NCBI GenBank assembly: GCA_964019335.1
Contig: OZ025707.1
Span: 124,001 to 188,000 of the forward strand
DNA length: 64,000 nt
From: Diplonema japonicum
Taxonomy: Eukaryota; Protista; Euglenozoa: Diplonemea
Reading direction: 5' to 3'
Within the stretch, counting starts at the first letter, position 1, and each line of letters begins with the position of its first letter. Of this stretch, positions 1 to 62,597 are shown piece after piece. The position numbers were made by a program, and so were the translations under genes. The notes under the pieces are model-generated. The model was not told the origin of the DNA. It searched no databases and saw nothing but the letters and a program-made list of their open reading frames with translations.

Positions 1-592
1 ACGGATCAGGGAGGAGACGGTGGACAGCATCGCCATTGCATGGAGGCAGCTCACCGCTATGAACCACCCTCTTAAAGAAAAGGCACACACATCGCTGGTA
101 AGCATCGCGGCGAAGCTGGCGAAGAAACCCAAAGGCAGTGGTTCAAAAGCGTCCGCAAAACACTCTTGGATGCGCATTGCCGCGGCACTGGAGGCAAACC
201 TCGACCTCGTTGACCATGTGTGGAGCAGACTGCTGGATGCACTGGCAGACCCGGACACCGCCATGTCAGAACACAGCCCTGAGGTCATCGCAGCGGCAGT
301 GGCGGGGCTACTGATCCGCACCCACAAGTTTCACAAAAAAGATGACGAATCCATTAACTTGGCAGAGGACTTGCAGGCTGTAGAGGCAGGGTTGTTGAAC
401 ATGCTTGACTTGGAGTCTGAGGTATTCTCCCCCCCCACTTAAAAAAACCCACCCCAAACAACAAGGTCCCCCTTGCCACGCAAGCCTTTGCCTTCCGAGG
501 TCTGACTAACGTCTGGGCGGTTGGGTGCGGGCTGGACATCCTGCCCCAGCCGACCATACAGAAGCAGAATGAGTTCATCACGGCGTATGTGT

Positions 593-29764: not shown

Positions 29765-30503
29765 AAAACCTCGGGTTGGGGATTCGCTGATATTTTCATA
29801 CTCCCCTCCCCTGAATGATTAAACCAAATAAGTGTGGCGTTACCTTACGTGTTTTTTTTTTCTTGAAAGGAAAGTGAAATAAAAAAATGAAATTAAAGAG
29901 TTATAAAAAAAAAACAAAAAAGCCCCCCGGTATTTGTCGTTTCATTGCACGCAACAGCCGAACAGGGTGTCTAACTGTGATCCTTTTTTTTTCCAATTGT
30001 TTTGTTTTTGTATGTTGTGTGCATGTCGGTACAAAGGAAAAAGGGGGGGAAAATATTCGTAGGCACTATCTTTCGTTCAAAAATCTCTTTCCTGTTTTTT
30101 TCTTCTTCTATTTGTTTCATTCTCTGCAGTTTTCTACATCTCAGGGGGGCAGCAAGGGAAGTCTAAACAAAGGGGGTGGGGGTGGTTTCTCTAGTGTTAG
30201 GCACTTGGCACTTTATTTGCCCTTGAATGACGAAATCAAAAGAAAATCTTTTTTGCCCGCGTGGTTACGAAATCCTTGAAGATGATCTCTTCTGTCCCGA
30301 CGGGGGCCGGGGTACGCGATACACCATATAAGTCATCTTTGCTGCCTTTCTTTTTTGCTCAAATAATCTAAACAGAAACTTTTGAACCGCCAAAAAAAAA
30401 GGTGTTGACATTTTAGTCCGGACAAGCTCAGAATAAATCTCGTTTTTCTAGTTCGCATCCAATTAATCCCTCCCAACACAGTCGCCTCTACCAACAAAAA
30501 AAT

Positions 30504-32198
30504 ATGGATCCGTCGGTACTTCAGAAGTACGAGGAAGGGGAGTGCCTCGGGTCCGGCGGACAGGGGTCGGTGTACAAGGTGGTGAGGAGGGTGGATGGAG
30601 ATATCTTTGCGATGAAGGTGTTGAAGGCGTTCACAGAAGAGGAGCACAAGAAGAACGTGGAGGAGGTGCGGCACATGCTGAAGCTGAAGCACAGGAACTT
30701 GATTCCCTGCCTTGACTTCTTCGAGACGACAAAGCAGCTGGCAAAGGAATCCCTGGCCAAGGTGTGGCAGCTTCACATCGTGATGCCCCTGTACGGAAAA
30801 GGGGACCTCTACTCATGCGTCCAAAAGGAGGGACCCCTCTCTCCGGAGAGGGCGCACAGGCTCTTGCAGGAGATGGGAGGGGTTCTTCAGTTGATTCACG
30901 GTGAGGGCTTCATCCACAGGGACGTGAAACCCCAAAACATCATGGTGTCGGGGAAGGGACCTCTTTCTGTGGCCAGTGTCGTTGGCGGCGAAGAGGGGGA
31001 GGCGGAGTTCATTTTGGCTGACCTGGGACTGTCGAAGGAGGTGTCCTCCAGTGGGGTAGCGAACTCCATCTTAGGCACACCAGCTTACATGGCACCCGAC
31101 TTCAACGGAAAGGACGGCTACACCAACAAAGTAGACATGTGGGCCCTCGGGGTGACTGTGTGTCAAGTGGTTCTCAAAGCAGACCTGAGGGACCTCTTTC
31201 TGAGGTACCTGCATCATAACCGTGAGCTTGTGATGGGGAAACTTCAAACCCACCTCCCCCCTGCCCTCTGGGAGGTTGTGTTCCGCCTCCTCTCCACCGA
31301 CCCTTTGGAACGCCCCAGTGCATCCGAGATGTTGCAGATCGGAACTCCTGGTATAATAGTCAGCACCTCTTCAACTACCAGTGGCGGTGACATGCACCCA
31401 CCTGTTGCGAACAACACCACCCTCACAAAAGAGGAGGGGAGGGTTGCCTTGGTGAGCGCTGTTTCAAAAGGGGACCTTGAGGAGATGAGGGAACTTGTTC
31501 TGGAGCGGGGTGTTGACCCTGGTGCAACGGGCAGCGATGGTTTCACAGCCCTGCACTATGCTGCTCGCGAAAACAACTGTGTCGAGGTTGTGGCTGCTCT
31601 CGTCTCTTCTTACCACCAGGACCCTGGTGTGAAAAGCAACGTTGGTTGGACACCGGTTCACCAAGCAGCAGAGCATGGAAGCCTAGAGACAGTTAAATAT
31701 CTCGTCGAAACTCTCGATCAAGACTGTGGTGTGAAGAGCAACGACGGTTGGACACCGGTTCATCAAGCATCACGGTACGGCCACTTCGAGACAGTTAAGT
31801 ATCTTGTTGAAACTTGCGGTAGCGACGCAGGTGTCAAAAACAACAACGGTTGGGCACCGGTTCATCTAGCAGCACAGGGTGCACACGTCGAGACGGTTAA
31901 ATATTTTGTTGAAACTCGCGGTCACCTCGAAACAGTTAAATATCTCATCGAAACTTGCGGTCAAGATGCAGGCGTCAAATGCAACGACGGTAGGACACCG
32001 GTTCATCAGGCAGCACAGGGCGGCCACCTGGAGACAGTTAAATATCTTGTTGAAACTCTTGGTCAAGACACGGGTCTCAGAAGCAACATCGGATGGACAC
32101 CTGTTCATCTAGCAGCCAGAGTGGCCACCTCGAGGTAGTTAAGTATTTCGTCAAAGCTCGCGGTCAAGACTGTGGTGTCAAAAACATCTATGGTCTGA
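30504..32198 (+). CDS. Ser/Thr protein kinase (NEK-like) fused to ankyrin repeats; 3' end frameshifted and truncated by the Penelope-like element
   Basis: GSGGQG, AMK, HRDVKPQN, DLG (DFG position), GTPAYMAPD, DMWALG, then the same ANK N-terminus as the array genes. After about 32120 the ANK reading continues in another frame (GHLEVVKYFVKARGQDCGVKNIYGLT) up to the insertion. Confidence 0.9.
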
Positions 32199-35100
32199 CA
32201 TCCTAACTTAAAACCATTTCAGTTGCCTCTAACTGCACTACCTTGTGGGCGCCGTTTAGACGCAACCAGAGGTTCTGCAGGTTTTTAACTCTTAAGATTA
32301 GTTTTTAAGACTTACCAACCCCAGCGACCAACAATGGGGACTTACTTCACCGTAGGTCACTCTGCAGGGTCGCATTTATGTAGACCCAAATACGAAACTG
32401 ATCTCCTCCCGTTCGTCGTTGAAAGCCGAAGTTTTCGAGGGCTTTCTTCCGAAAAAAGCCCGTTTTTGATAAAATGCCTTTTGACCGCACAACTAGAGAC
32501 TCCCCACCTCTACATCCTACATCCTGAGAAATCCGCTCAGCCCCTTGTACGTCAAAGAGGGGGTCCATGCGACACGGCGTTAGTTGGGCGATGATAGGTT
32601 TCGTAAACTGGCCCTGGGGAGCTCTCGACCGTGCAGTGATAGTCCTGACTGCACGGGTGAACATACAGGCAAGGCATGCACGTTTTTTTGATGAGGTGAG
32701 CCGCGCTATATGACTGAACGTATATTTGCACATATATATAGTGCCCTATATCCATTCTATGCACCCAACTATTCCTTTTCCCCCCCGTTCTTACCTAGAC
32801 AAGGAGAACCCTTCGTTAGCTTTGCTGCCCGCGCAGGCTACGTCCTTCTCACAGGACCATCCGGCACGCTCAGGAAAGTGGTGGAAAAAAAGCCCTCAGT
32901 AGGCAACTCGGCTCATGTTGAAATACTCCGGTCGGACCCCGTTACGGCAACGGGTGCAGTTCATACCCACCATCAGCTCATTATGACATGTCTAGACCTC
33001 CTTGTCCCCGGTCCTCTAACCCGTCTAGTGCTCTGACCAACTTGTGACTGTCATTCTAAAAGCTGTCCTAAATAAAACTGCTGCTAGGAGTCAGGTAACC
33101 AATCCACCTTTGTAGAAACCCTCCGTTTTTCTAAAGCATCAAGCATTTTCATAGCGATGAAGAGACCCGCCTACGGCCGCTTTCCAACTCGTTATGACAC
33201 GCGCGCATCACAGGTGCGGCGTGCCGCAGGAAATGCACCCCTAAAGATCAATACCTTTCCGTCAACAACGAATAAAACAAACACTTATAAGAAGTATAGT
33301 CAGTCGCGCATATATACCCTTCAACTACCGTGCAATCAACAGGTCGCCCTCCAGAGAGGAAGTCATCCGCACCATCTGTGACGCCTATGGTGCGGGTGTC
33401 CGAAAGGCCCTCTTCGTACGTGATGTCGTACAAAACGGCAACGTGCTAAAGGTCCACCTGGAGATCGCCACCAGGGACACACATATTCCCTATGCACTCC
33501 TCACGCAGGCACTCCTACACCACCATGGAGTCCGTGCCTGTTTCACCGAAGGTGTAGCACCGACGCGTCCCGTCAAGACCTTACGGAAAACGCCTACTAC
33601 TCCTCAACCGGCCCACCGGCCGAACCACCGGTCTGGCCCCCAGCCCGCTTATCGTCACGGATACCAACCTGCCTACGATAACCGCTGGGGCAAAGATCAA
33701 AACAGGTACGAGATCCGCAAGGACTTCTTCCTTAGCACAATGGCAAAGGACCAAGTCAAGAAGTCGCGGGACATCTCCAAGCCTAGCCCGGTCAGCTGCA
33801 AACGAAACAACGGCAGCATTGACTGGGCCCTCTGGGAGTCTCTCAGCCAGGACGCAGCCGCCAAGTTCATGGCCAAGTACAGCCGCATCGTAAAGAACAT
33901 GCGCCAAGGAAAGGCCCCCGAACAGGACGCAGCAGGTATCATCTACCTCGCTGTCGACAAACACGGTGAACCTGTGTACGCAGGGCAGACGTTTAACACC
34001 TTACGTCGTCGTATGCAGGGCCACTGGAGCAGCGCCAGATCGCACAGAGAGAACGCTGAAAGCAACGACACCCGCTTTCACAAGGCCCTCAGGGAAAACG
34101 GGGGCCCGTTATTCGCTTTCCCCGTCGAATCGATCAACCCCAAGTTCTTCGACGACGCCAAGTCCTTCCGTCGTGTTGCGATCCCCAGGGAGAACCAGTA
34201 CATCAATAGGCTGGCTTGCTCCCTTAACATGCGTGGTAGGTTTGCTAAGACGCAGACCCGTCGCCGCCGCAACACGAAACGTAAACCTAAGACGGTACGC
34301 GAGCAGCAACAGCAGCGACACCAACACCAGGGGCGCTCGAATGCCAAACAGGACCCCAGCAGCAACACTACTACGTCCCCTTCGAACCCCAACAACACCC
34401 CCACCAGATCTACCGCTCCCTCGATACGGCTGAACGACGACGGGGAGCTGTCGATCCAGGCTACTGGGTCCAACTACAAGTCCCTGTGTATGAAGATCAC
34501 CGCGATGTGTGCACACCCCGATGTGCTGAACTACGACTTCACTACCTGGGCCCCCAAGACCGTCTTCAGGTACCTGAACTTCCTGAGACGTTACTTCGTC
34601 GGGAACTTCTTCACCGCCAAGATCGCGGCTATCGAACGAGGCCTCACCAACCGCCTCAGCCCTGCCCTCTTGAAAAAGGTGGTCCGCCGAGACGAAGGCT
34701 TCGTGTGGTTCAAAACGAGTTTTGACCACAAGGCCAAGGAGATGATCCTCTGGCGTAAGGTCTTCGAGGACAAGGAGTAATTGCGGCATGCCCCAAGCCA
34801 GCCCTCCTTCGCAGAGTACACATGTGCAACAAGCTTGGTCAAACCCTCAAGGCCACAGTGTGCAATGTGACGAAGCTCAGCATCGAGACCCCGCGTCCAG
34901 AAGCGGCCGAGCCTACAACAAACTGCCCTTGCTCGAAGCGCAAGACCTCACACACACATGAGGGACACGCCTGCGGACTAGCAGCAGAGGTCATCGATGA
35001 CGACGAAGTGAAGGAGGTTCTGAACAGAGGCATGAAGTTCCGCCTCTCAACACACGCCCTCCTCTCTTCCCAAAGTCTCGAGGAGGACATCAACGGGTTC

Positions 35101-38100
35101 ATCACTCAGAACTTTCGGAGATCCCCTGCAGTGAAAAAGGATTCCTTCCGGAAGGTCCTCCTCGCCAAGGCACAGAACCTTCTCCACCCCCACACTCAGT
35201 CTCCGGTCTTCGACCCCTCAGTCCCGGAGTTCATCAAGACAAAGCTCCGGAAACTTCAGGAGGTCTACGTTTTCCTCCCCATAGACAAAAGCACCCACGA
35301 CATTGGCGTCTGTTGCAAGGATCACTACCTCAGGATCCTGCACCAACAGCTTGATAGCCAAGCTTTCGAGCCGGTCTCGAAGCCCTTGGACTCGATCTTC
35401 TCCGAAATAGCTGATCAAGCCAAGACCTTCAACCTCGATTCCACACGTCGCATGCCATACCTGTACGGTACCCTGAAGCTACACAAAGACAAAGTGGGCG
35501 TCAGGTGGATCTCTGGTGTCTCCTCCACTGATGCACCCCCTGTGGACCAACCAGCAGCGGTCAGCACGCAGGAAATTATGGAGAACTTGGTCGCAGCAGG
35601 CGGCGATACAACGGGCAATAAAGCTAAGAAACCCACAGCTGCCACCACGGCCCTCCATCTAGAACTGTCTTCCCTCCTGAAGGCTGTCCAACGCGCGCTG
35701 CTGGACAAGGATCTGGAGGGCAGGTCCAAGACCCACGGTCCCGACGGTATCCGACTAAAGCGGTACTGGATCGTCGACTCGGCCGAGAACGTAGCTGCGG
35801 ATATCAAGCAGCAGTACACGGCTTACAAAAGCCTGTCCCCTGCCACGTACGACTTCCGGGACATGTACACCAACCTCGACCAAGGGCGTCTGAAAGAGGG
35901 GGTTCGTAAAGCAGTCCAAGAAGCGTTCGACTTCACCGGCAAGAACCTCACCCGTGGCAAGGACGGGAGCTCCTTCACAGATGCCGACGAGGACGATGTC
36001 TACACCCCGGAACGGATCCATAAGCTCCTGGACCTCGTCGTTGACAACACCTATGTTGTGCAGGGTGGCCGCGCCGTTCGTCAAGTAAAGGGTATCCCCA
36101 TGGGTGGGAACGCCTCCCCCGACCTGGCGAACCTGTTCTGCTACGCCGTGGAGGCCGCATACATCGACAAGCTCCTCGCCGAAGAGGACTGGGAGACCTT
36201 GAAACGCTACTGCAACGCGTGTCGCTACATCGACGACTTCCTGTTGTGGAGCACTGCGCCACCCCCGGAGGAGCTTTATGGCATGGCTTATGTAAAGACC
36301 TCTTCAGACCCATGCGACGTCCCCTTTATCGGGATTCGCATCCGGATAGAGCGCCACGAACAAGCTAAGCACAACTATATTAGACTTAGCATTAACGATA
36401 AGGCGCAGAACTGGCGCTTCCGGCCTACGCGGTTCACCCACGGGCACACCGCGGCGCCCACCACCCAGGGACCAGGCATCTTCAAGGGCATGGTCATCCG
36501 TGCCTGCGCCCTGACCAACAACATCGCGGACCTCAAACGGGAGATCGCTTCAGTGATCTACCTGCTCCTAGATCGCGGTCACGACAAGGGCGGCCTGCGG
36601 AAAGCGTACAACGCCTTCCTTATCGAACGCGTGGATCGACGCTTCGCCATGGAGAAAAGCAACCTGCTGGCCTTCTTCACGCAAGTCCTCCACCGATACG
36701 ACGCCAAAGCCCCGGTAGATTCTTGGTTGCCGGAAAAAACGTACATAGGCCCCAAGAAACCCCGTGCGCTTCCCACGGACGACTCCTCGGACGACTCCTC
36801 AGCTGACTCCTCAGTCGTCTCCTCAGTCGCCTTCTCGGGGGGCCCCTCAGACGAGCCCTCGGACAGTTCCTCGGACAGCTCTTCAGGTCTTGTCGAACCG
36901 TCACAACCCCGAGCAGCCTCCGTGGTCTCACCATCTGGTGTCACGGACCAGGTTTTTTCGCCCCCCATCAACCTGCACACCAACAGCGGGGAAGGTCGCC
37001 TGGGCCTGGAATGCGGCTGGGCCGTCATAAACTGGTTGGCGGACTATGCTGGTGTGGACCGCATCCCCTTCTCTACAATGCAGGAGATCCAGGAGATGTA
37101 CCACGGCTTCTCACGACTCATCTCCCCTTCCAGCACTGATGAAGCGCCCGATCCTCTTGGCAACTTTTCCCGCTCGACCTTGTCACGTGCTTGCCTCATG
37201 GTCGTTGGTGCAAACTTGGAGGTCTTCCGTGCGGGCATGAAAGAAAGCCCCTGCTTGATCGTTGGTCCCTTGAAACGAAGTCTCAGCGGCCACTGGTTCA
37301 TCGCTCTCAGGAAGAAGGGAAGGTACATGGTCAAAGACACCGACGTACGGCTAAGGCTCCAGAGCTTCAAACACATCTGCGCGACATACTCCGAACACAA
37401 CATCCTCTGCATCCCAGACGATGTGTGGGCCAGGACAACCCCAGGCAGGAAACACAACACACGTGTTCTAGACCCTGAGGCTGAGTTTCGCCAGTTTGAG
37501 CCGGTCATCACCCCGGCGGCACCCCAGGTAAGCGACTCGAGCGCGCGAAAGACTGAGACCGCTCTCAACACCCCGGAAGATCGCACCCTCCTAACTTATG
37601 TCACCCTAGCTGCAGCTATAGCTACATATGCCGCACGCACCCGACGGCTCGACACAGGAGTCGCCGCATCAGGTGTGGATGCGCACACCGCTCACTTCGG
37701 GCGGCCCGTCGCCACCGCCATCGTAGCCCTAGCTGCCGCCGTGGCCGCGCGAGCCGTGCACACCGGATGCTCTGTCACCACCACGTCTACGGCAAGCCAG
37801 ACTAACGTGGTCGGAACTGTCCCGCTCTTCCTGAAGGTCTCGAGTCTGCACAAGTCTACACCACAGACAGCAGTCGCAACCTGTCAGACGGACCGTGTCA
37901 CAGCACCTGTACTGTTCTCGATATCATCGACGCTCCAGACGGATCCTCCCAGCAGTAGACTGCCCCCGATGGACGCCGGACTGGGGTCGCCCTCGGCCGC
38001 GGCGGTCAGACTTACGAAGTCTGTCGAAATTCCGACGCCCCGCGCGACCCTGTCGAGGCGGCCGGTTATTGAGCCTCGGTTGACACCATGCCTTCCACCG

Positions 38101-40092
38101 CCAACGGACGTGTCATCCACCCAGCTCGCGGCCTGCACTCAGTCCACCCGTCGGGACACCGGACACGGGAGTGACACACCGATGCCGTCGTCTACCATGG
38201 GACACGCGACACTCCAACCAGTGGTCGGCTCCCAGATTGTGACAACGTCGGCTGTGGAGTCATCGCTCGCCCGAGCCGTGACAACGCCCGTTCTGGCAGA
38301 CGCCCCCCTCGGCGCCCGCCAGGTACAGCTCACTCCTTGCATCCAGTCCGTCCATGAGAACATCGGACTCGGGATGGATACGCCGATGGCTCCCGCCATG
38401 GGACACGCGACGCTTCAACCGGTGGTCAACGCCCAGAGAGACACGACGCTGACCCTGGAGCCGCCCGTGGCCCGAGCCGAGGCAGATGCTCCCCTAGACC
38501 CTCACCAGGCGGATGGTGGTTTAGAAATGATCGACCTCACGCAGGACTCCCCGGACAGACCCTCGCGCAAGAAGAAGCACGACGGCACTGCTTACGAGCA
38601 CGAAAGCCGTCGTGGTAAGAGTTCCTCCACAGGCGATGGGGATCTTCTCATCCTGCGCGAGCAGTCACAGGGTTTTGATCAGGAAGCCCTCAACCGAAGG
38701 GCCCTCCAGAGACGGATGGATCGATACCTCAGTCTCTTGGTCTACTTCCGGCGACACCCGGAGCTCTTGGACGAACACCAGCGTCAGCTCCTGTCGGTCG
38801 GTCCCCTCCCGATGCACCTGGACACCTCTCCACATCAACTGCTGCTCGAGGCCCGTGACACGGATAGAACTGCCGACCAACAGGCAACCGTCGCCAACCA
38901 GGAACAGCTTCTTCTGATTGCGCACAAGGCGTTGCCTACCACCGAACGTCTTCGGTTGTCTCACGAATGGCACTCGGGGCTGAACACCGCGGTACAGCAA
39001 CAGTGGTGGTCGGAGTTCTTCGCCCAAGGCGGCTGGAAACACCCACTCTTCGGTTCCGAGGCCCCAAGAGGTGACGAGACTAGGACTCCAGGGAGGACCC
39101 CTCTCCTGCTCACCTACAACGGGCAGAGGAACAAACGCCCGGAACCCGAAGACGGCCCCGCCCTTCCCGCGGCCAAACGGGATCTCGCCGCGACGAGGCC
39201 GAACACCAGAGTCACTGGACTTGTCGCCCTTAAGAGGCTCACCAGGGAAGCAGACGTCGACGGCCCTGAGGACCTGGACGAGCTTCGACACCTGGGCTTC
39301 CTTTCCCAGGGCGAGGCCGTCTTTGACCTCAGCTGCGTGTCCAGGGCTTGCACACACTTCCTGGGTGAGACCCCCATGGTCACGGTCCCCCTCGACACAC
39401 GCGTCGCGATCCCGTGTCTGCTGGTCTGTTATGACTCGACGTGGCTCTACGCTTCCCGCCAGGAACAGGGCTTTCGGTTGCAGACCCAAGGGTTCAAGGA
39501 CAAGTCGTATCCGACTGTGGCAGCCCTACTCGCTGACTTCGTGGGGGCAGGGACCCTCTACTACAGCGAGTCACAGTGGTCGACTGTGCTGAACTCCTAC
39601 AACTAGGAACTACTGGAGACGACCCTACGCAATGTAGGAGTGCCGGCCCGGCGTGCTACGAGGGCGATAGGTTATGCAGGGTCTCACAGACCTCGCACCC
39701 TATGATTTTAGTTTCCACCTTTTCCTTTTCCACTTCTTGACTTTTAACTTCCCTTCTGCTTTCCCAACATGGTTTCCGTCCCGGGTATGACGTTAAACTG
39801 CGTCCGCCGACACATTTGGGTCAACATTCTCTGATGACCAAGCCGTCTTTTTCCGTTTCTTCTCCCCTTCTCTTTGTTATGTTATTTTCATTATTCTTTC
39901 TGGCGATAGACTGATACGGGCCATGGAAGCAACCTCTGCTTAATTCCTGGTACGTGGGAGGCTCCTCTTGAGGATGTCAGTCACCTTTTCCCTTTTTTAC
40001 TCGACTCTCTGTTTTCGTATGCAGTATTTATTCTTTCCCACCCCTTTTTATCTATTTCTTCGCTTCTTCATCCTAACTTAAAACCATTTCAG
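32199..40092 (+). mobile_element. Penelope-like retroelement with N-terminal GIY-YIG endonuclease (Naiad/Chlamys-type domain order)
   Basis: 24-bp direct repeat CATCCTAACTTAAAACCATTTCAG at 32199-32222 and 40069-40092, no TSD. Order: GIY-YIG, CxC..H..GH linker, PLE-type RT. Confidence 0.9.
33157..39606 (+). CDS. PLE polyprotein: GIY-YIG EN - RT - Josephin-like protease - low-complexity linker - inactive Josephin-like repeat (two frameshifts in this copy)
   Basis: GIIY...YAGQT...RRRMQGH...E..YI...LN. RT motifs FLPIDK, YGTLKLHK, YDFRDMYTNL, GIPMGGNASP, RYIDD. Frames are continuous across single-base shifts near 33335 and 34777 (DKE|VIAACP). Confidence 0.85.
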
Positions 40093-40298
40093 CCACCTCC
40101 GACACCGCCTACGCCACCCTCTCCGGTACCTCCATGGCCTCCCCTCACGTTGCTGGTGCCATGGCTCTCTACGCCCAGACAAACAGCCCCGCTGAGGTCA
40201 AGAAGCTCCTCAACGACAACGCCGAGACTGGTATCCTTCAGATCGGGACTGGGTCCCCGAACAAGATGCTTCACGTTCCTTGCATTAGCACCCGTTAA
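40093..40298 (+). pseudogene. 3' fragment of S8 subtilase
   Basis: Begins in the STSDTAY coding region immediately after the PLE right repeat. Confidence 0.9.
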
Positions 40299-41014
40299 AC
40301 TCGGGATTCGCTGATCTTTGCATACTCTCTTCCCCTCCCCCTGAATGTGTAAACTAAAAAGAAAACGTGTGGCGTTCCCTTACTTGTGTTTATTTATTTA
40401 TGAGAAAACTGCTAACTTGACCCCTAAGTTTGAGAAATGTCAAAAAGCCACCCCCTTAGTTTGAGAAATGTTCAAGGTCTATCTTTAAAGAGGAAAAAGT
40501 TTCTGATCCAGTCCCCAAGGTTTCCCTCTCCCCTCCCCTCCCCCTGAATGATTAAACCAAATTCGTTTTTGATCTTTTCAATCCCCCCCTCCCCTCCCCC
40601 TGAATGTGTAAACTAAAAAGAAAACGTGTGGCGTTACCTTACTTGTGTTTTTTTTTTAGACACCTTTTTTTATTGCTGAAGGAAAGAGAAATTTAAAAAA
40701 AAAAAAAAAAAAAACGAACTTGAAGACCAAACAAAAACGTCTCCGGTTTTGTTGAATCTTTGGACGCAACAACAGAAGAGGGCATCCAAGTGTGTTTGTT
40801 CTTGTTGTGGATGTGTTTGTGTATTTGTCAGTACGAATTTAACCAGACTTCCCAATCCTTCGTTCGAACATCTCTTTCCTATTCCTTCTTCTCTTTTCCC
40901 TCTTTCTTTCTCTGCAGTTTTACACGTCTCGTATCTTATTTTTTCGAGTTCACATCCAATTAATCCCCAACACAGTCCCCTCTACCTGCACAACAACAAC
41001 AACAACAACAAAGT

Positions 41015-42184: not shown

Positions 42185-42262
42185 AAAATAAAGTGTTCAC
42201 CAGTGTGATGTTCGAGAGGCACAATTTTCGTACTCTCCTATTTTTTTTTTTTTAAATTTTTA

Positions 42263-44914
42263 CGGTACGGTGAGCACATCAAGAGCAACCCGATGGCACA
42301 CGCCCCCATCGACGCCAAGCTGCTGAAAGAGGTGATCGGTAAGAAAGCGGACAAGGGGGCATGCGGCGTGGACGGCTGGCGGATTGGTGAGTTGAAGCGC
42401 CTGCCGGCTCCGATCCTACAAGCGTTTGCGGACCTCTTCAACTTGATAGAGGAGACGGGCGAATGGCCGATGCAGGTCACGACGGCACTCGTATCCCTCA
42501 TCCCAAAGGGGGAAGGAACGGCACCTCTGGATCACCGACCGATCACAGTGACCAGTACCATTTACCGGCTGTGGGCAAGTGCACGACTGGTGCAGGTACT
42601 GAAATGGCAGGAGAGGTGGATCACACCACGACAACATGGTTTCAGGCCTAAACACAGCACGACCTCGGCGCTGATTGACTTATGCACGAAGCTAGAACTG
42701 GCACTGGTGGAGGACGAGCCGCTAGAAGGACTTGCATTGGACTTCAGGAAGTGCTTCGACCTGGTCCCGCAACAATTGTCGCACGAACTGATGCTGGCCC
42801 TGGGACTAGACCCAGCAATCGCACGAGCACTCCAAGGAATGTACGGGCAAATCTCGAGGAGATTCAAGTTCCCCATAGGAATAGGGGCCACCTTTAAAGC
42901 AACGAATGGGATACTCCAGGGGTGCCCGCTGTCGGTGATCATTATAAACGCCTTACTGGCGGTGATGATCAGGACAATCGAGAAGGAAGCACCTGGAACG
43001 GAGGTTTGTCCTATGCAGATGACACGTACCTTCTGGCAGAGTTGGAGAAGACCTTGCAGGCTGCGGTAAACGGAACTTTGGAGTTCTGCGGACTCACTGG
43101 GATGAAGCTTAACCCGGAGAAAACGGTAGCGTTTGGCACGAAGAAGGGCTTCCGGTCAAAAGTGCTGGGTGATAGGACAGTAACACAGAAAGGGAGAGAG
43201 GTCGCAGTCCCCTATAGAACAGTGACGTCGTTCAAGGCACTGGGCGTGATGGTGTTCACGAACAGGACAGGAACGACGTGGAACGAGCCAGCGACGGAAG
43301 CGGCCAACAAGCTAGACCGGCTGGGAGGGACAAGCCTGTCCTTCGAAACAAAAGGATACCTGATTGGAACATCGGTCTTGCCGTCGTGCCTCTACAGCAG
43401 CCCGTTCTCCCCTCCGAGTGATGAGGCGCTGAAGAAGCTAACAACGAGAGTGACCTGCAACCTATGGGGGCCTCACTTCCGAGGACGATCGCCTGCAGCG
43501 GTGAATACGGTTTTGCTGAAAGGACACATCAATGACCCGTTGTCCTACGTCATCTGTCACTCGCTAAAAGTGATATCGAGCGCGCTGGAAAGGACAGGTC
43601 TTGGACAGAGAGTGCGACAAATAGTGCAGAGGTACGGCTCACAGAGGACCCCCCTGGGACCGGTGGGGAATCTGATATGCAGGTGGATGCCGAGAATCGG
43701 ATGGGACTGGGAGAAGATGGAAATAGCCACAGAACTTGAGTGGCCCAAGCGAGGAAGCGCCTTCAGGGCGGCTGTAAGGGCAGCCAGGAGTGCGACACTA
43801 GCAACGGAACGGAAGACGGTCAGCGGACTCGGGGAAGGAGCAGATCCCAAAACGAATGACCTCTGGAGGACAGCTAAAGATCGCCATCTAGCTTTCTGTA
43901 TCAAGAGGGTAATTGCGGGAGGGATCCCCTACCTAAGTCCGTATGCCAGAGCAGGACCAAAGTGTGTACCCCCCACGAAGGAGGACGACGAGTCCGAGGG
44001 ACGGAGCGAAGAAGAGGAAGATCAAGACGAGCCAGCGGCGCATGAAGGACAAGACGAGTCGGGATTTGAATGTGACCTCTGCCCGACCAAGCATGCGGAC
44101 ACAGTAACACTGCTACGCCACCAGCTGTACGAGTGCCCGCCAGCACGAGAGGAGCTGATACGGGAGGAGATGGAACCACTGCGCGACAGGACGGGATGGC
44201 CGCTCTGCCTCGAGCTGCATGCCATCCTACCAAGGGGGAACGGGTTCGAACACCTGGAGAAGCTGCAGCGATACCTGGCAATGGTGGTGGAAAAGCGGGA
44301 CGAAGGGCTGATGCAGGCAGAAGGCGGCAACAAGAAGCTACCATGGGAGCGGGAAGTGACAGGCAAAGTGACCCCGGTACCGACGACAGCACAGCTGGGG
44401 ACAGTGGTGGGACTGCTGGAGCAATTCGGGGAACCACTACTGGAATGGATGGGAAAGCTGCGATGGGTGGAGGGCGACACCGACTCGGAGGTTTCGGCAG
44501 CTGAACTTGCACTCGACTTTGAGGAGACAACCGGAAAGTCACTGGGAGTCTACAACATGCAGAGGAAGGCACGCAGAATCAAGCTGTTGGTGGAGAGAGC
44601 CAACGCAGTGTGCAGAACGAGACGGATAAGACGCCCCTTCCCTGCGGACGGGGCAAAGAGGGTCAAGTCGCTCACAGCGATCGGAGGCAAGGCTGCAATA
44701 GGCTTTAACAGGAGACCGATCTTCGCATCAAGACAGACAGCGCAAAAGCTACAGGAGTTGAAAGGGACATACAAGAAAGAACGCGTGTCGAGACTACGAA
44801 AAGCTTTAAAGGCGACAATAGGAACGAAGGCTATGCTCCAGAAGGGGAGCATTAATAGATAGGAACTCACACCACAAGAGGCTGTCCTCGAGTGGGATTG
44901 TCTTTTACCATGAG
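42263..44914 (+). mobile_element. 5'-truncated non-LTR retrotransposon (LINE): RT + C-terminal CCHC finger, no poly(A) tail
   Basis: GVDGW, LIPKG..RPI, QHGFR, LDFRKCFD, GILQGCPLS, YADD (43012, after a 1-nt frameshift), CDLC..H...C. TSD TAAATTTTT(T)A at 42253-42262 and 44915-44925. Confidence 0.9.
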
Positions 44915-46281: not shown

Positions 46282-46327
46282 TTTCTGTACTTTATTGGTG
46301 TCCGACTATTTTTTCTGTACTTTATTG
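46282..46327 (+). other. Two copies of spliced-leader 3' sequence TTTCTGTACTTTATTG
   Basis: Positions 46282-46297 and 46312-46327 match the conserved 3' end of kinetoplastid/diplonemid SL exons, within a 30-nt tandem duplication. Confidence 0.8.
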
Positions 46328-46571
46328 GTGTCCGACCGTGCCAATAAAGTCAATAGGTAATACGGTTTGAAAAGAAGAAAAATAGAAGAAGAGTAAAAGA
46401 CGAGAAGACAGAGGGAAGAATCAATAGAAAGCGAAGAACTAGGAAGACAAATCAAAAGAAGGAAGCGAAGGACGAAAAAGACTGGAGGATAAAATCAAAG
46501 CGAAGCGAAAGGACGAGAAGACAATAACAACAGAGAAGGTAAAAACGACAGAAGGGATAGGTCGAAGCAGG

Positions 46572-48782
46572 ATGGGGTTCCAAGACCTCTCACGAGCGCT
46601 GAAGGGGTTTGGCATGACGGTGGAGGCGGGGAAGGACTACACCTTGTACGGAGTGCTAGCAAAGAAGTTAGCGATGAAGAAGGCAGAGGTGCAGGGCATG
46701 GTCCTGCAGGAACTGAGGCGGAACGAGGCGGAGTACACCCCACTCGTGGAAGGAGGAGACTTCGACGGCTTCTGTGTAGCACACAGCCGAGAAGGATCCG
46801 TCGCAGACAGCCTGTGCATCCAGGCCGCCGCAAGAGCACTGAAAGCCAACATTCATGTTGCAGTGCTTGCAGAGGGGTCCCTAGTAGTGCAGGTCGCTCA
46901 AGGCGGGAAAAAGAGGGTGCACATAGGGCACGACGGACAGGGAAGGTTCTGCTTTGTCGCTGAGCCCTTCGAAAAAGGGGTGCTGAAGACCGTTCAACGG
47001 AAGTTTGAGCTGGTGAAGGTGAGGATGCCAACGACTGACGGAGAACGCAAATCCTGGCGCACCCCCAGCAACAACAAGAAGAGAACGGCCCCAGTGAAGG
47101 AGGACGCCAAGAAAGTGTGGAAGCTAGAAAAGGACCAGTTTCAAGTCCCCTTCATCGAGATGGAGGACATGGCGAAGGGAAAGGACGGCGTGGTGCTACT
47201 GTCTGAGGAGAGTTTGTTGAAGGTGCAGGCAATGAAATGGTCAGGGATCAAGGGGGTGCTCACGAAGCAAGGGGGGGACGGAAGGCTGGAAGTCGACATC
47301 GTCGTCAAGACGGCAACCGAGTACAGCAACAAGACGATGTTCCTGACGGCGCTGAGCGGGAGAGTCGAGCTGGTTGCACCTACAGGCACGGTGGACATAG
47401 ACCTGGGGAAGATGTTCGTCAGAGCAGCAGTTGTGGTCGCGAAAGAGCACGCCTCGCCAGAACTCTGGGAACGAATGGTGAACGGACCGCACGGCCAGCT
47501 GAGGAAGATGGGCTGCCGGGGCGTCCTGAGGGTAGACAAGCACCTGAACGGGGTACAACGAGTCGACGCGCTGGTAACGCTCCCGAAGGAAAGGCTGGCG
47601 GGGATGCTGAAGGACTCAGGGAAGGACGGGGTCTTCCTCAAACTGAAAGACGGGAAGCTCGGGCCGGTTGCGTGGCTTCCAAAGGACACAACGCTGGACG
47701 TAGCGTTGGCGCAGGCAGAGGCGGAGGGTCTGGCGATGCGGGACGGTGACGGCCGCATCGGGATACGGACGACGGAGGAACGGAAGATCGCCATCCTCAA
47801 CAAGGCGATGGGAGAGGGTGCGAGGCTGGAGGGCCAACACGGGGAGCCGACGTGGAAGCTCACCGGGCTCTACTCGGATTGCAGCGAACAGCACGTGGAG
47901 AGGATCACCGCAAAGATGGGATGGAAGGGAGTACCAGTCAGAGGCGGATGGAGCAACGGGACACGGTGCTGGTACATCAGAGGAACGAAACCCCCGACCG
48001 ACAAGGTGAGGATCACGACCCCGACAGGGAAGATCCTAAACTGCAGAATCACGTCGGATACGTCGACCAGACCGATGGCCACCTTAAAGTCACACCCAGG
48101 GCAGACATGGAGCAGAAAACAGTCCTCGCCAGCTGGGGCCAAGTCCTATCTGAACGCGGCAGCAGGGGTTGCTAAGACTACTCCCACCCCTAGCACCAAG
48201 ACTCAGGCAACGAAGGATTCGCCAGACACAAAGGGAAAGGTGCAAAAGAACACGTCGATGGAAGACCGTCTAGGTGCGATCGAAAAAGCGATTCAGAAAC
48301 TCTCCGGCAGACCACTCAAGAAACCAAAGGAGTCGTCGGAGGTCCTGAAACTGAGAAAGGAAAATGACGAGCTACGCCAGGAGGTACGCCAACTACAGCA
48401 GGCGATGACGGAGCTAACAGCCCAACTGAAGGTATTCGTGAAGCAGGGGCAGAGGTCGGAAGAAGCATGCTCCCCGCAGTATGGCACGGAGATGGAAGGA
48501 ACAGAAGATGCTGAGTCTAGTTTGGGACCACCGCCTACGGGGACGGATACGGACATTGAAACTGAAGGGGGAGACGGGGACGAGGAACTGTTGGAGGAAG
48601 GAGACCTTACCATTTGCGTGACAGGAAAGACGCACGTCTTCAACGGCACGTACTCGACCTGGAGGGGAGCAGTGTGCAAGATATGCGATGAAGGGGTGCA
48701 CAAGAAGAACCAGGCCCAACAATGCATAATAAACGAGTGCAGGACCACCGTGTGCCGTAGTTGTATGGAAGGCGGGTGGTGA
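46572..48782 (+). CDS. LINE ORF1: N-terminal pseudo-OTU domain, central domain, coiled coil, C-terminal Cys/His zinc finger
   Basis: OTU-like pattern (GKDYTLYGVLA...ELRRNEAEYTPLVE.GDFDGF...CIQAAARALKANIHV...VHIGHDGQGRF); coiled coil LRKENDELRQEVRQLQQAMTELTAQL; H..CKIC...C...C...CRSC. Confidence 0.75.
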   Translation: MGFQDLSRALKGFGMTVEAGKDYTLYGVLAKKLAMKKAEVQGMVLQELRRNEAEYTPLVEGGDFDGFCVAHSREGSVADSLCIQAAARALKANIHVAVLAEGSLVVQVAQGGKKRVHIGHDGQGRFCFVAEPFEKGVLKTVQRKFELVKVRMPTTDGERKSWRTPSNNKKRTAPVKEDAKKVWKLEKDQFQVPFIEMEDMAKGKDGVVLLSEESLLKVQAMKWSGIKGVLTKQGGDGRLEVDIVVKTATEYSNKTMFLTALSGRVELVAPTGTVDIDLGKMFVRAAVVVAKEHASPELWERMVNGPHGQLRKMGCRGVLRVDKHLNGVQRVDALVTLPKERLAGMLKDSGKDGVFLKLKDGKLGPVAWLPKDTTLDVALAQAEAEGLAMRDGDGRIGIRTTEERKIAILNKAMGEGARLEGQHGEPTWKLTGLYSDCSEQHVERITAKMGWKGVPVRGGWSNGTRCWYIRGTKPPTDKVRITTPTGKILNCRITSDTSTRPMATLKSHPGQTWSRKQSSPAGAKSYLNAAAGVAKTTPTPSTKTQATKDSPDTKGKVQKNTSMEDRLGAIEKAIQKLSGRPLKKPKESSEVLKLRKENDELRQEVRQLQQAMTELTAQLKVFVKQGQRSEEACSPQYGTEMEGTEDAESSLGPPPTGTDTDIETEGGDGDEELLEEGDLTICVTGKTHVFNGTYSTWRGAVCKICDEGVHKKNQAQQCIINECRTTVCRSCMEGGW

Positions 48783-49242
48783 CTGACATATGATAAACGA
48801 CCCCCAACCCCGCCGAACGGCCAACACCCTAACCTAAACAATTTCATCAATCACAATTATAATCATCACCACACGACCACCCGGCCCCAGTCGAAGCACG
48901 ACCCGAGGTTGCTCTCCGACAGAGAATCGAAGCAACTGGTCGAGGATGGGGTGGAGCCAAACCCGGGACCCGGACCGGCGAACGACGAGTTGGAGAGACG
49001 CGGAACAGACGAGCTCACCCTATTCACGCACAATGGCGCGGCCCTAAACAACAGGCTGGGTGAATATGCTGGAGTCCTCCCAGACGTCTTCTGCATCCAG
49101 GAGACGGCGCTCACAGCCCAGACACAGCTGGAAGTGGAACGCGTGCTCAGAGATGACGAATGGGGCAGGCAGTACACCAGATTCTGGGGGAAACCGCAGC
49201 CAGGCAGGAGGGCAAACGAGATCTCGTCGCTAACAATCGCCA
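48783..49242 (+). CDS. LINE ORF2 5' fragment: linker, 2A-like peptide, AP endonuclease start
   Basis: In frame with ORF1 after a single TGA; LVEDGVEPNPGP; no ATG before the APE motifs. Confidence 0.75.
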
Positions 49243-60931: not shown

Positions 60932-62597
60932 TTTTATTTCACTCTTCGTCATTTTCTTCACTCACTAGGGGCCTCATTATTTAACGCGAAATCGCCATTA
61001 TTTAACTAGTTAAATAATGAGATTTTGCAGTTAAATAATGGCCATTCAGAGTGAAAAAATGGGTCTCGTCGTGAAAAAAATGTACCCACCCCCTTGAAAA
61101 ATTTTTTTGGGGTGGGGGTATTTTGACTATTTTTGGCCATCTGAGGCCATTCCAGCCCTTAAAAGTGGGAATAAGCGCTTTACTTCCCCTTTAAATGCCA
61201 TAGCGAAATTGCCACCCCCATATCACCTTAGGGAAATTTCAGCAAAAAAACCACCTAACAGCACTACAAATCGCATCGCAATCATGCCAAAGGTTAAAAA
61301 GTGTTCGAACTGGGAAGAAAAACTCCCCAGGAAGTCAGCTGAGATTTACAAAACAGCATGGGAAAACTTCTGGTCCAAGCATACGAAGCCGAAAGAAGCT
61401 GATGTCATCTCCTATCTTAAGCAGAAACTTGCTGATGGGTACAGCTGTGGCACCGCGTGGACGCTGTATAGCCAAATCCGGGCTGTCTTCGTTGCAATTT
61501 ATGGGGCTGATGAAAAGGAGTGGAAAGAGCTCAAACTCTTTTTGAAGAGGTCGGAATCCTCCACGACCCGGGTTGTCAAAAAAGCTGAGGTATTCAACAT
61601 GGAGGACCTCTCTACGTTGCTCACCCTCGAATGCCCTGAGCATATGAAGGCCAACGTTTTTACCGTGAACAGAGCAATGTTTGTTTGTGGTTATTACGGG
61701 GGGTTGAGGGGGGAAGAGCTGTACGAGCTAGAGTACTCTAAGGTGTCGCAAGACGACTACGGCTTCTGGTTCTGCTTCCAGCGCAAGAAACAGCGTGGAC
61801 CTCCGGAGCTTTCGACCTTTTTAGTGCCGAAGGGACTCGCAGCCGATGTTTTCAACATCTATTTTTCCTCTGTTGACGACAAGAAACCGTTCCTTTGGAG
61901 GGCAGCCCATACACAGAACGGGTCGAAGGGGTTTGTTGCGTCCAGGTTAGGGATCAACACCGTGAGGAACGTCACCAAAGTAGTGGCCAGCCTGCTAGGC
62001 AAGAGCTGCCCGTCGAAGTACACTTCGCATTCGATGAGGAGGAGTGCCGCTACAGCTGCTTGTGAAGGGGGCGCCGACATAGCCACGCTGATGAAATTTT
62101 TTAGCTGGAACTCGGTTTCAGTAGCCCAGGGCTACATCGATAAAAGCAAAAAGCTGATTAGTACTGTGTCGCAGCAGCTGAACATTCCTTGCCTGCCCTC
62201 ACAACAGCAGCCTGGAAATCCTGCCTTGGTTCCCAACACACAACAGCCTGGACTGCCACAGCCCGCCCCCAACAGTGTCCAACCGGGTCAAACTATCTAT
62301 TTCTCAAATATTAGCGACTACGTCACAATCAATATCAACAATAACCAAATGCCTGTCCCCCCCCAAAAAAAAGCTGACCCGTGTGAGGAAAGCAGCGGTG
62401 AAAGCAGTGAGAGTGAGTGAGTGAGAGTGACTCAAATGACGAAGAGTGAAATAAAACGACTTACTTGCCGCCAAATGAGCCATAATTTAACTCTCGTTAC
62501 CGTTTTTTTGCACTCGGGCCCGGCGGGCCCTCGTGCAAAAAATTCGGGACCTCGAGTTAAATTATGACTCATTATTTGTTGGCAATAAATAGTTATT
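60932..62597 (+). mobile_element. Apparently intact tyrosine-recombinase DNA transposon (Crypton-like) inserted in a poly(T) run
   Basis: Empty site visible in other units (e.g. about 55660-55690). Perfect 23-bp IR at 60932-60954 / 62434-62456; terminal hairpin 62460-62592; terminus AATAAATAGTTATT. Confidence 0.9.
61284..62420 (+). CDS. Tyrosine recombinase (378 aa from MPKVKK)
   Basis: Catalytic set R (GLRGEE), K (RKKQ), HxxR (HSMRR), W (FSWNS), Y (QGYID). Confidence 0.9.
   Translation: MPKVKKCSNWEEKLPRKSAEIYKTAWENFWSKHTKPKEADVISYLKQKLADGYSCGTAWTLYSQIRAVFVAIYGADEKEWKELKLFLKRSESSTTRVVKKAEVFNMEDLSTLLTLECPEHMKANVFTVNRAMFVCGYYGGLRGEELYELEYSKVSQDDYGFWFCFQRKKQRGPPELSTFLVPKGLAADVFNIYFSSVDDKKPFLWRAAHTQNGSKGFVASRLGINTVRNVTKVVASLLGKSCPSKYTSHSMRRSAATAACEGGADIATLMKFFSWNSVSVAQGYIDKSKKLISTVSQQLNIPCLPSQQQPGNPALVPNTQQPGLPQPAPNSVQPGQTIYFSNISDYVTININNNQMPVPPQKKADPCEESSGESSESE

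What the first reader, a model, noticed from the sequence alone, without database searches (positions are those of the whole stretch)
40020..40092. PLE ends coincide exactly with a splice acceptor: possible trans-splicing-based monomer processing instead of a hammerhead
Seen: the element ends with a long pyrimidine tract, then CTAAC (branch-like), then TTTCAG, and the junction to host sequence is exactly after the AG. The last 24 nt are repeated at the 5' end (32199-32222), so the body starts right after an AG. I found no canonical hammerhead by eye in either UTR. Known: PLEs form partial tandems (pseudo-LTRs) and usually carry hammerhead ribozymes. Inference: in a tandem or readthrough transcript, SL trans-splicing at each AG would cap the monomer 5' end and leave a 3' end at ...TTTCAG, so the host spliceosome could replace the ribozyme.
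Basis: partly seen in the sequence, partly recalled or inferred. Interest (0 to 1): 0.8.

Follow-up and report, generated by a model that had tools for sequence, protein, structure and literature searches.

The report
Diplonemid Penelope ends beside splice acceptor
A Penelope-type jumping gene of a marine flagellate ends at a sequence that looks like the host's splice acceptor, but other copies run 7-9 bases past that point and none seen carries the host's leader tag, so it is likely copied from unspliced read-through RNA at fixed start sites, and splicing likely does not stand in for a ribozyme.

Summary
Observation confirmed. The element (32199-40092) ends in pyrimidine tract, CTAAC, TTTCAG, joined to a host subtilisin gene right after the AG; its last 24 nt are repeated exactly at the 5' end; no ribozyme was found. 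It is a Penelope-like element with the GIY-YIG endonuclease before the reverse transcriptase (Chlamys-type) in a euglenozoan, likely diplonemid, host. That clade normally lacks hammerheads, so nothing needs replacing. Public contigs show that the 24 nt are a very short pseudo-LTR (another copy carries at least 66 nt), and that three other insertions end 7-9 nt past the AG, inside the next unit's start: a short PLE 'tail' that needs RNA uncut at the AG. The tandem joint has no spliced-leader relic, whereas a neighbouring LINE starts with one (leader motif recalled). Best reading: internal reverse-transcription starts on unspliced read-through RNA; the tract and AG likely serve expression only. 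Still open: the AG-ending copies may be primed at the end left by trans-splicing (about 15%). Leader addition at 32223 could not be tested. My searches found no PLE reported from Euglenozoa. Unchecked scan notes report acceptor-like PLE ends in vertebrate genomes too.

The parts
32199..32222 (+). Very short 5' pseudo-LTR: copy of the last 24 nt of the element (first 2 nt also fit the host ankyrin repeat)
   Evidence: a diverged copy in run X4 has 46 more 3'-UTR-like letters upstream
32223..32231 (+). Start of the body; the 7-9 nt that other insertions carry as a 3' 'tail' after the AG
   Evidence: loose ends behind 32229 (X7), 32230 (X2), 32231 (X10), each with a different flank
32223..33156 (+). 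934-nt non-coding leader with 12 upstream ATGs
33146..33154 (+). Second acceptor-like site (TTTTCATAG), 2 nt before the start codon; weak tract (57% pyrimidine)
   Evidence: use as acceptor is inferred
33157..39606 (+). Polyprotein gene: N-terminal GIY-YIG endonuclease, KR-rich block, CxC motif, PLE reverse transcriptase, long C-terminal extension. Frameshifted twice in this copy (near 33316 and 34776); the majority contigs of the public runs carry small insertions at both places that would give one frame
33935..34057 (+). GIY-YIG core (Pfam PF01541, E 1.5e-4, 22.4 bits against a cut-off of 22.6); no cysteines inside or before the core
34924..34932 (+). CxC (CPC) motif of the Naiad/Chlamys clade
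36010..36258 (+). Reverse transcriptase core (Pfam RVT_1, E 1.4e-4); best named relatives are Diplonema papillatum proteins at 31-41% identity
39607..40092 (+). 3' UTR, 64% pyrimidine; source of pseudo-LTRs and of many 5'-truncated copies
39977..39988 (+). Possible further fixed 3' boundary, 104 nt before the terminal AG and 8 nt after another TCAG; 9 of 12 letters match the tail site
   Evidence: 3 contigs with loose ends behind 39988 in each of X1 and X3
40023..40068 (+). Pyrimidine tract (83%), AG-free
40069..40092 (+). Terminal 24 nt with CTAAC and TTTCAG; 3' end of this copy
40093..40299 (+). Right flank: 3' end of a host subtilisin gene, cut inside the ORF
30417..32198 (+). Left flank: kinase-ankyrin gene, cut inside an ankyrin repeat

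Best explanation
This is a Penelope-like retrotransposon with its endonuclease before its reverse transcriptase, and its copies are likely made from unspliced read-through RNA by reverse transcription that likely starts at a few fixed neighbouring sites (at the AG and 7-9 nt after it). Shown: domain order, no hammerhead, the 24-nt repeat, longer pseudo-LTRs and AG+7..9 ends in other copies. Inferred steps: (1) host polycistronic transcription runs through a pseudo-LTR/body joint; (2) the protein binds the AC-rich end of the unit, nicks C-rich DNA and starts cDNA inside the RNA, as the Anolis PLE does in vitro; (3) short runs give 3' stubs, and a stub placed before a full copy is the pseudo-LTR, here only 22-24 nt; (4) the 5' end joins by microhomology, without target duplication. 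The tract and AG likely act as an ordinary host processing signal (polyadenylation of the element's mRNA and a leader acceptor for whatever follows), with the AG just before the start codon the likelier acceptor for translation; they are likely not what sets the copied unit.
For: Clade features: N-terminal GIY-YIG, CxC, DKS, GxKF, KR block, no CCHH (against PMC8557442 sections 6 and 9); 7 of 16 top relatives scanned show GIY-YIG at E<=0.01, each before the RT-matching part (P0071, P0079, P0084, P0085, P0089, P0101, plus P0006 make the list; within alone 6 of 16). Hammerheads are normally absent in that clade. Tail class: of 9 'behind' loose-end rows at 7 places in a 1,246-nt stretch, 3 places are 32229, 32230, 32231, each with another flank (17 rows shown, 3 not shown); in X7 the contig graph forks after 32229 into body and a 123-nt foreign flank (records 24-26). 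Longer pseudo-LTR: X4 record 17 bridges tract, AG and body with 66 letters on the upstream side and no leader between. [quoted passage not shown] PLEs keep introns and can join by microhomology without TSD (PMC3846280). Summed contig depth is about 17-18 times higher over 39688-39958 than over 33184-33996 in X1 and X3, in line with many 3' stubs (the tool warns that this is no copy number). Flanks after the ends are C-rich in 4 of 5 cases read, as for Chlamys targets. A LINE in the same window starts with a leader-like 15-mer (46283, 46313; motif recalled), the mark a leader-capped template leaves; the PLE has no such match (best 10 of 16 on the + strand).
Against: The coincidence of an end with a top-1% acceptor-like AG is not explained by internal initiation alone (0.05-2% by chance). 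A diverged copy matches from the CTAAC onward while the tract differs but stays pyrimidine-rich (X4), and another seems to have CTGAC for CTAAC (X6, loose end behind 39997): both fit a kept splice signal. Two of the three tail contigs are short (20-22 loose letters), their depth was not shown, and X10 looks like a proximity-ligation library (one loose end starts with GATC), so only the X7 case is solid. The tail is 7-9 nt, not the 30-40 nt described. The share of copies ending at AG versus after it is unknown (181 of 205 loose-end rows not shown). No clear hairpin at the start sites (z -1.43). The window copy differs from the majority contigs at many places and none of the pieces listed bridges its own host junctions, so the runs may be another strain.
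Confidence: 0.6

Rival explanations
1. Mixed route: the host spliceosome uses the terminal AG; the upstream RNA left by trans-splicing ends in AG-OH and is the template for the copies that end at the AG, while unspliced RNA gives the tail copies.
For: Site quality: first AG after an 83% tract, top 16 of 1,647, alike to the host ankyrin-gene acceptor candidates (18936, 40917). Ends at or next to the AG: window copy, loose end behind 40093 in X1 and X3, joint 32222 to 38936 in X5 (ambiguous, because the four letters before 38936 equal the first four of the body). Motif kept in diverged copies.
Against: In trypanosomes the same tract directs poly(A) cleavage about 100 nt upstream (PMC6597758), which would cut the AG end off the ORF; the by-product is branched and would stop RT about 16 nt in unless debranched, whereas the shortest pieces seen are 22-24 nt and about 30 nt (X6, loose end before 40063). 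The tail class shows that RT can start here without a cut.
Confidence: 0.15
2. The acceptor look is incidental: a T/C-rich 3' UTR plus an AC-rich RT-binding motif that happens to end in CAG; no splicing occurs there. Copying is as in the best explanation.
For: YTRAY lies in 17.5% of random 45-nt stretches of the window and in only 2.4-15.8% of diplonemid introns (PMC12621601); trypanosomes have no branch consensus and branch upstream of the tract, while CTAAC is downstream of it here; none of the other 15 top acceptor candidates has CTAAC. The 39988 boundary shares a TCAG-T-N-N-CC-T motif with the tail site (9 of 12; 0.46% in shuffles, post hoc), which points to a sequence-directed start.
Against: 66 AG-free nt and an 83% tract directly before the AG are what kinetoplastid splicing would use.
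Confidence: 0.15
3. One reading: trans-splicing at both AGs cuts a tandem transcript into a leader-capped monomer ending in TTTCAG, which is the template, replacing a hammerhead.
For: Unit boundaries at both ends fall right after the same AG; trans-splicing host; no ribozyme.
Against: A capped monomer would be copied through the leader, leaving it in DNA between pseudo-LTR and body; the joint is direct in the window and in X4 record 17. Tail copies need uncut RNA. The clade needs no ribozyme. The 5' copy here lacks the tract altogether (43% pyrimidine).
Confidence: 0.07
4. An undescribed self-cleaving RNA, or a cis-spliced intron as in Penelope and Chlamys-3_cRei leaders, defines the boundary.
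For: PLE leaders can hold an intron at the pseudo-LTR/body boundary (PMC8557442).
Against: No Rfam ribozyme or hammerhead core; the terminal 53 nt are predicted unfolded; none of the 10 joints or the 1 is a GT..AG skip ending at this AG.
Confidence: 0.03

Closest known systems
Chlamys elements of the Naiad/Chlamys PLE clade (Craig et al. 2021, PMC8557442; sections 6 and 9 read whole, other passages, supplement searched)
   Same: N-terminal GIY-YIG without CCHH or CX2-5CxxC, CxC motif, DK motif, GxKF, pseudo-LTRs from partial tandems, 5' truncation, no hammerhead, length within 3.3-8.2 kb, C-rich targets, long C-terminal extension in some families.
   Different: Host is a euglenozoan (no mention of Euglenozoa in the main text, or of Diplonema, Euglena, Discoba, Bodo in the one supplement held); tail 7-9 nt instead of 30-40; ends at an acceptor-like AG; several relatives carry a C-terminal ubiquitin hydrolase domain. 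Not placed on a tree with named Chlamys.
Poseidon_Ac (PAc) of Anolis carolinensis (Frangieh et al. 2024, PMC11167929; first two of four parts of the text read)
   Same: Ends of genomic copies fall on two neighbouring positions at the pseudo-LTR/body joint in AC-rich sequence; the stretch between them is the tail; uncut RNA is the template.
   Different: PAc has a C-terminal endonuclease, a hammerhead and AT-rich targets; its start sites were mapped in vitro, here they are inferred from junctions.
Adineta vaga Penelope families (PMC3846280; passages read)
   Same: Partial tandems; 5' junction by microhomology without TSD; optional tail; unspliced templates.
   Different: C-terminal endonuclease, 31-bp tail, pseudo-LTRs of about 200 bp.
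Cer1 of C. elegans (PMC3315495; passages read)
   Same: A retrotransposon with an internal leader acceptor whose full-length RNA is not trans-spliced there, while a shorter mRNA is.
   Different: LTR retrotransposon of an animal; acceptor is not at the unit end.
SIRE/VIPER of Trypanosoma cruzi (recalled; only names SIRE)
   Same: A retroelement end recalled to supply a trans-splice acceptor to the gene behind it.
   Different: Tyrosine-recombinase element; the acceptor role is my recall and was not found.

Membership tests
Penelope-like elements | PLE-type RT with GIY-YIG endonuclease | tested here: met
   Pfam GIY-YIG and RVT_1, both just under or below curated cut-offs; RT aligns with N-terminal-EN PLE proteins
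Penelope-like elements | Partial tandem giving a pseudo-LTR; frequent 5' truncation | tested here: met
   24-nt repeat; at least 66 nt in X4; loose ends before 39775, 39894, 39959, 40063 and rising depth
Penelope-like elements | Optional 30-40 bp tail | tested here: inconclusive
   A tail exists but is 7-9 nt; 1 solid and 2 weaker contigs
Naiad/Chlamys clade | GIY-YIG N-terminal to RT in one ORF | tested here: met
   Order shown; two frameshifts in this copy, insertions at both places in majority contigs; one ORF in D. papillatum P0006
Naiad/Chlamys clade | CxC motif, KR block, GxKF, DK motif | tested here: met
   CPC, RRRRNTKRKPK, GMKF, DKS
Naiad/Chlamys clade | Insertion in fingers domain (IFD) | tested here: inconclusive
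   Motif A to B spacing is like that of the Naiad-type P0012, but no canonical PLE was in the alignment
Naiad/Chlamys clade | No canonical hammerhead | tested here: met
Naiad/Chlamys clade | Phylogenetic placement with named members | not tested
Naiad (animal branch) | CX2-5CxxC finger and CCHH in the endonuclease; DKA | tested here: not met
   No cysteines in or before the core; DKS, unlike P0012, L003, L005
Chlamys (protist/green branch) | Endonuclease without CCHH but with R, H, E, N; 3.3-8.2 kb; (C)n or (CA)n targets | tested here: met
   Residues read by eye; 7.9 kb; C-rich flanks in 4 of 5 junctions read, a small sample
   Only contigs of runs of unknown kind were available
   Ends at AG+7..9 and perhaps 39988; direct AG|body joint

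The most novel reading that the evidence does not exclude
A euglenozoan Penelope-like element uses the host trans-spliceosome to set its main 3' end: the RNA end left at the AG by leader addition to the downstream sequence is where reverse transcription starts, so every new copy also plants a leader acceptor in front of the host DNA it lands beside; the tail copies come from RNA that escaped splicing.
Probability: 0.15. Interest if true: 0.75.

Novelty: new member of a known kind. Interest (0 to 1): 0.4.

Why it matters
It extends the N-terminal-endonuclease PLEs to Euglenozoa, for which my searches found no report, and gives a short-tail, ribozyme-free case in which the two-start-site model from the Anolis PLE can be tested. 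If the terminal AG is a working leader acceptor, the many 3' stubs would scatter new trans-splice and poly(A) signals through a genome that is regulated through those signals. If it also set the template end, it would be a retroelement fed by a splicing by-product, which I did not find described.

Tried and rejected
Whole genome: none held, so no genome-wide junction count. RNA: no RNA holder listed. In runs X4 and X7, which look RNA-like (longest records 20.8 and 7.4 kb, patchy cover) but are of unrecorded kind, all 7 of 7 laid records were listed for each and none shows leader-like letters before 32223 or 33155; contigs show presence, not absence, so this is not counted as evidence. Contig breaks at 33155 also occur in DNA-like X2, so they are not read as leader joints. 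Ribozyme searches: nothing; one relaxed hammerhead-like hit on the minus strand (32367-32324) has a mismatched core and a 2-bp stem II and was rejected. A hairpin pairing CTAAC with AGTTG across the joint is predicted but not significant (-1.0 kcal/mol, 20 of 200 shuffles as good). The 24-mer as the host leader itself: rejected, it is the element's own 3' end. Telomeric-repeat reading of CCTAAC: no tandem telomeric repeat in the window. Related loci: 19 of 111 metagenome stretches were confirmed, all distant (23-38% identity) and of unknown host; their ends could not be defined, so conservation of the acceptor was not tested; 0 of 18 in viral contigs. A Josephin-like look of the C-terminal extension (by eye) got no support from Pfam or PDB sequence searches. 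The leader sequence could not be confirmed from papers or Rfam. Literature: 10 searches; none returned a PLE processed by trans-splicing or a PLE from diplonemids or Euglena; subscription journals are not covered, and the supplement text of PMC10161547 that describes leader sites and repeats gave no hits and may not be among the 7 files held.

Full report
Observation. The sequence is as described. The last 24 nt of the element (40069-40092) recur exactly at 32199-32222. The right flank is the 3' part of a subtilisin gene present intact 5 times in the window, which fixes the junction directly after the AG with no ambiguity. The left flank is a kinase-ankyrin gene; the first two letters of the repeat also fit the ankyrin repeat. 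There is no target duplication. The AG is preceded by 66 AG-free bases and by a tract of 83% pyrimidines, matched by 16 of 1,647 YAG sites on the strand, among them the likely acceptors of the host ankyrin genes (18936, 40917). A random end in a shuffled 3' UTR would land on YAG in 1.9% and on YAG with CTAAC in 0.05% of cases (post hoc). No ribozyme was found.

What the element is. It codes for a GIY-YIG endonuclease before a PLE reverse transcriptase. In this copy the gene is frameshifted near 33316 and 34776; the majority contigs of the public runs have an 8-nt and a 1-nt insertion there, which would give one ORF from ATG 33157 to 39606. It has the CxC, KR-rich, GxKF and DK motifs and lacks the cysteine fingers of the Naiad endonuclease, the pattern of Chlamys elements in PMC8557442. 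The closest named relatives are proteins of Diplonema papillatum and one of Lacrimia lanifica; 6 of 16 top relatives scanned show GIY-YIG before the RT part and 5 of 16 a C-terminal ubiquitin hydrolase. A host gene's named relatives are euglenozoan and other discoban proteins. All Euglenozoa add a spliced leader (PMC10161547, passages). So the premise of a trans-splicing host holds.

The missing hammerhead needs no replacement. Naiads and most Chlamys lack canonical hammerheads and proliferate well. [quoted passage not shown]

Other copies. No genome was held, so I laid contigs of 8 of the 17 listed runs. First, the 24 nt are a short pseudo-LTR: in X4 a diverged copy has 46 further 3'-UTR-like letters before it and runs through the AG into the body with nothing between. 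Second, three contigs in three runs follow the element through the AG to 32229, 32230 or 32231 and then continue in three different foreign sequences. They are 3 of the 7 places with a 'behind' loose end in 1,246 nt (17 rows shown, 3 not). The X7 case has depth 33.5 and 123 foreign letters; the other two are short and X10 may be a ligation library. These are 3' ends with a 7-9-nt tail, and a tail cannot be copied from RNA cut at the AG. Third, ends at or next to the AG also exist: the window copy, a loose end behind 40093 in X1 and X3, and a joint from 32222 to 38936 in X5, the last ambiguous. Fourth, 3 contigs in each of X1 and X3 leave the element at 39988 with unlike flanks (agreement 0.59); that place is 8 nt after another TCAG and matches the tail site at 9 of 12 letters (0.46% in shuffles; 9 such 12-mers exist in the element besides the site itself). 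It is also about 100 nt before the terminal AG, the distance of a coupled poly(A) site in T. brucei, so it fits either reading. 181 of 205 loose-end rows were not shown, so the classes cannot be counted.

The leader test. A leader-capped monomer used as template should leave leader letters in DNA at the start of the body. The joint has none. By contrast a LINE in the same window starts, right where host sequence stops, with a twice-repeated 15-mer that matches the 3' end of the Diplonema leader as I recall it (46283, 46313; not confirmed). A leader at 32223 would also leave 12 ATGs before the ORF, while another AG lies 2 nt before the start codon. Leader addition in RNA could not be tested.

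CTAAC. YTRAY occurs in 17.5% of random 45-nt stretches here and in 2.4-15.8% of diplonemid introns (PMC12621601, passages). Trypanosomes have no branch consensus and branch upstream of the tract (PMC6597758, passages); here the motif is downstream of it. It is kept in a diverged copy (X4) and seems to read CTGAC in another (X6), so it is under some constraint, as a splice signal or as a protein-binding site.

Mechanism. Most likely (0.6) the element is copied from unspliced read-through RNA by internal initiation at neighbouring fixed sites, and the tract with its AG is the host-type signal that a gene in this host needs for 3'-end formation and leader addition. Shown are the anatomy and the junction classes; the start sites, the template and the use of the acceptor are inferred.

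Novelty. A new member of a known kind, in a host group for which my searches found no PLE report (PMC12278014 lists 4 clades in trypanosomatids, none a PLE, abstract and passages). Unchecked notes of this scan describe PLE ends at acceptor-like sites in rays and a lizard; if right, the trait is not tied to trans-splicing. Papers seen: PMC11167929 parts 1-2 of 4; PMC8557442 sections 6, 9, passages, supplement search; passages of PMC10161547 (plus supplement searches), PMC12621601, PMC4006747, PMC12278014, PMC4558846, PMC3315495, PMC6597758, PMC3846280, PMC8061765; PMC7052976 searched without hits; Sturm 2001 and the SIRE papers recalled only. Interest 0.4.

Noticed in passing
window 46283-49242: 5' part of a LINE (ORF1 with a weak OTU-like hit, start of ORF2) that begins exactly where host sequence stops with a twice-repeated 30-nt unit holding TTCTGTACTTTATTG, which matches the recalled 3' end of the Diplonema spliced leader: a likely leader-headed retrotransposon.
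   Followed up: partly
window 42262-44914: 3' part of a LINE (RT, frameshifted, ending in (TTTA)n and T run) lying upstream of the LINE 5' part above; the order suggests a rearrangement or misassembly in the tandem array.
   Followed up: no
window 32198/40093: The PLE sits between the middle of an ankyrin gene and the end of a subtilisin gene, so about 3-4 kb of the normal array unit is missing: target deletion, or recombination between two copies.
   Followed up: partly
window 17286-60442: Tandem array of subtilisin and ankyrin-repeat genes, with one unique kinase-ankyrin fusion (30417-32138).
   Followed up: no
window 61098-62420 and 963-1574: Tyrosine-recombinase ORFs (Pfam Phage_integrase E 7e-9 for the first; the second by eye), possibly Crypton- or DIRS-type elements.
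   Followed up: no
proteins P0003, P0072, P0073, P0075, P0076, P0081: Relatives of this PLE carry a C-terminal ubiquitin carboxyl-terminal hydrolase domain after the RT; the window element has a Josephin-like motif by eye only. Deubiquitinase-type cargo may be a habit of these elements.
   Followed up: partly
proteins P0071, P0004: Diplonema papillatum gene models fuse kinesin or dynein-chain sequence to the PLE protein; could be annotation artefacts or splicing into the element.
   Followed up: no
window 32867-32969, 33137-33218, 38196-38236: A rearranged, diverged copy with these pieces appears as one contig in X4, X6, X7 and X2, at higher depth than the intact body in X6 and X7.
   Followed up: no
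window 39688-40092: In X6 (RNA-like, kind unrecorded) summed depth over the 3' UTR is about 300 times that of the body, against about 17-18 times in DNA-like X1 and X3; 3' stubs may sit in many host transcripts.
   Followed up: no
window 38122-38278 and 38326-38479: Internal 157-nt imperfect repeat (71%) in the C-terminal extension of the PLE ORF.
   Followed up: no
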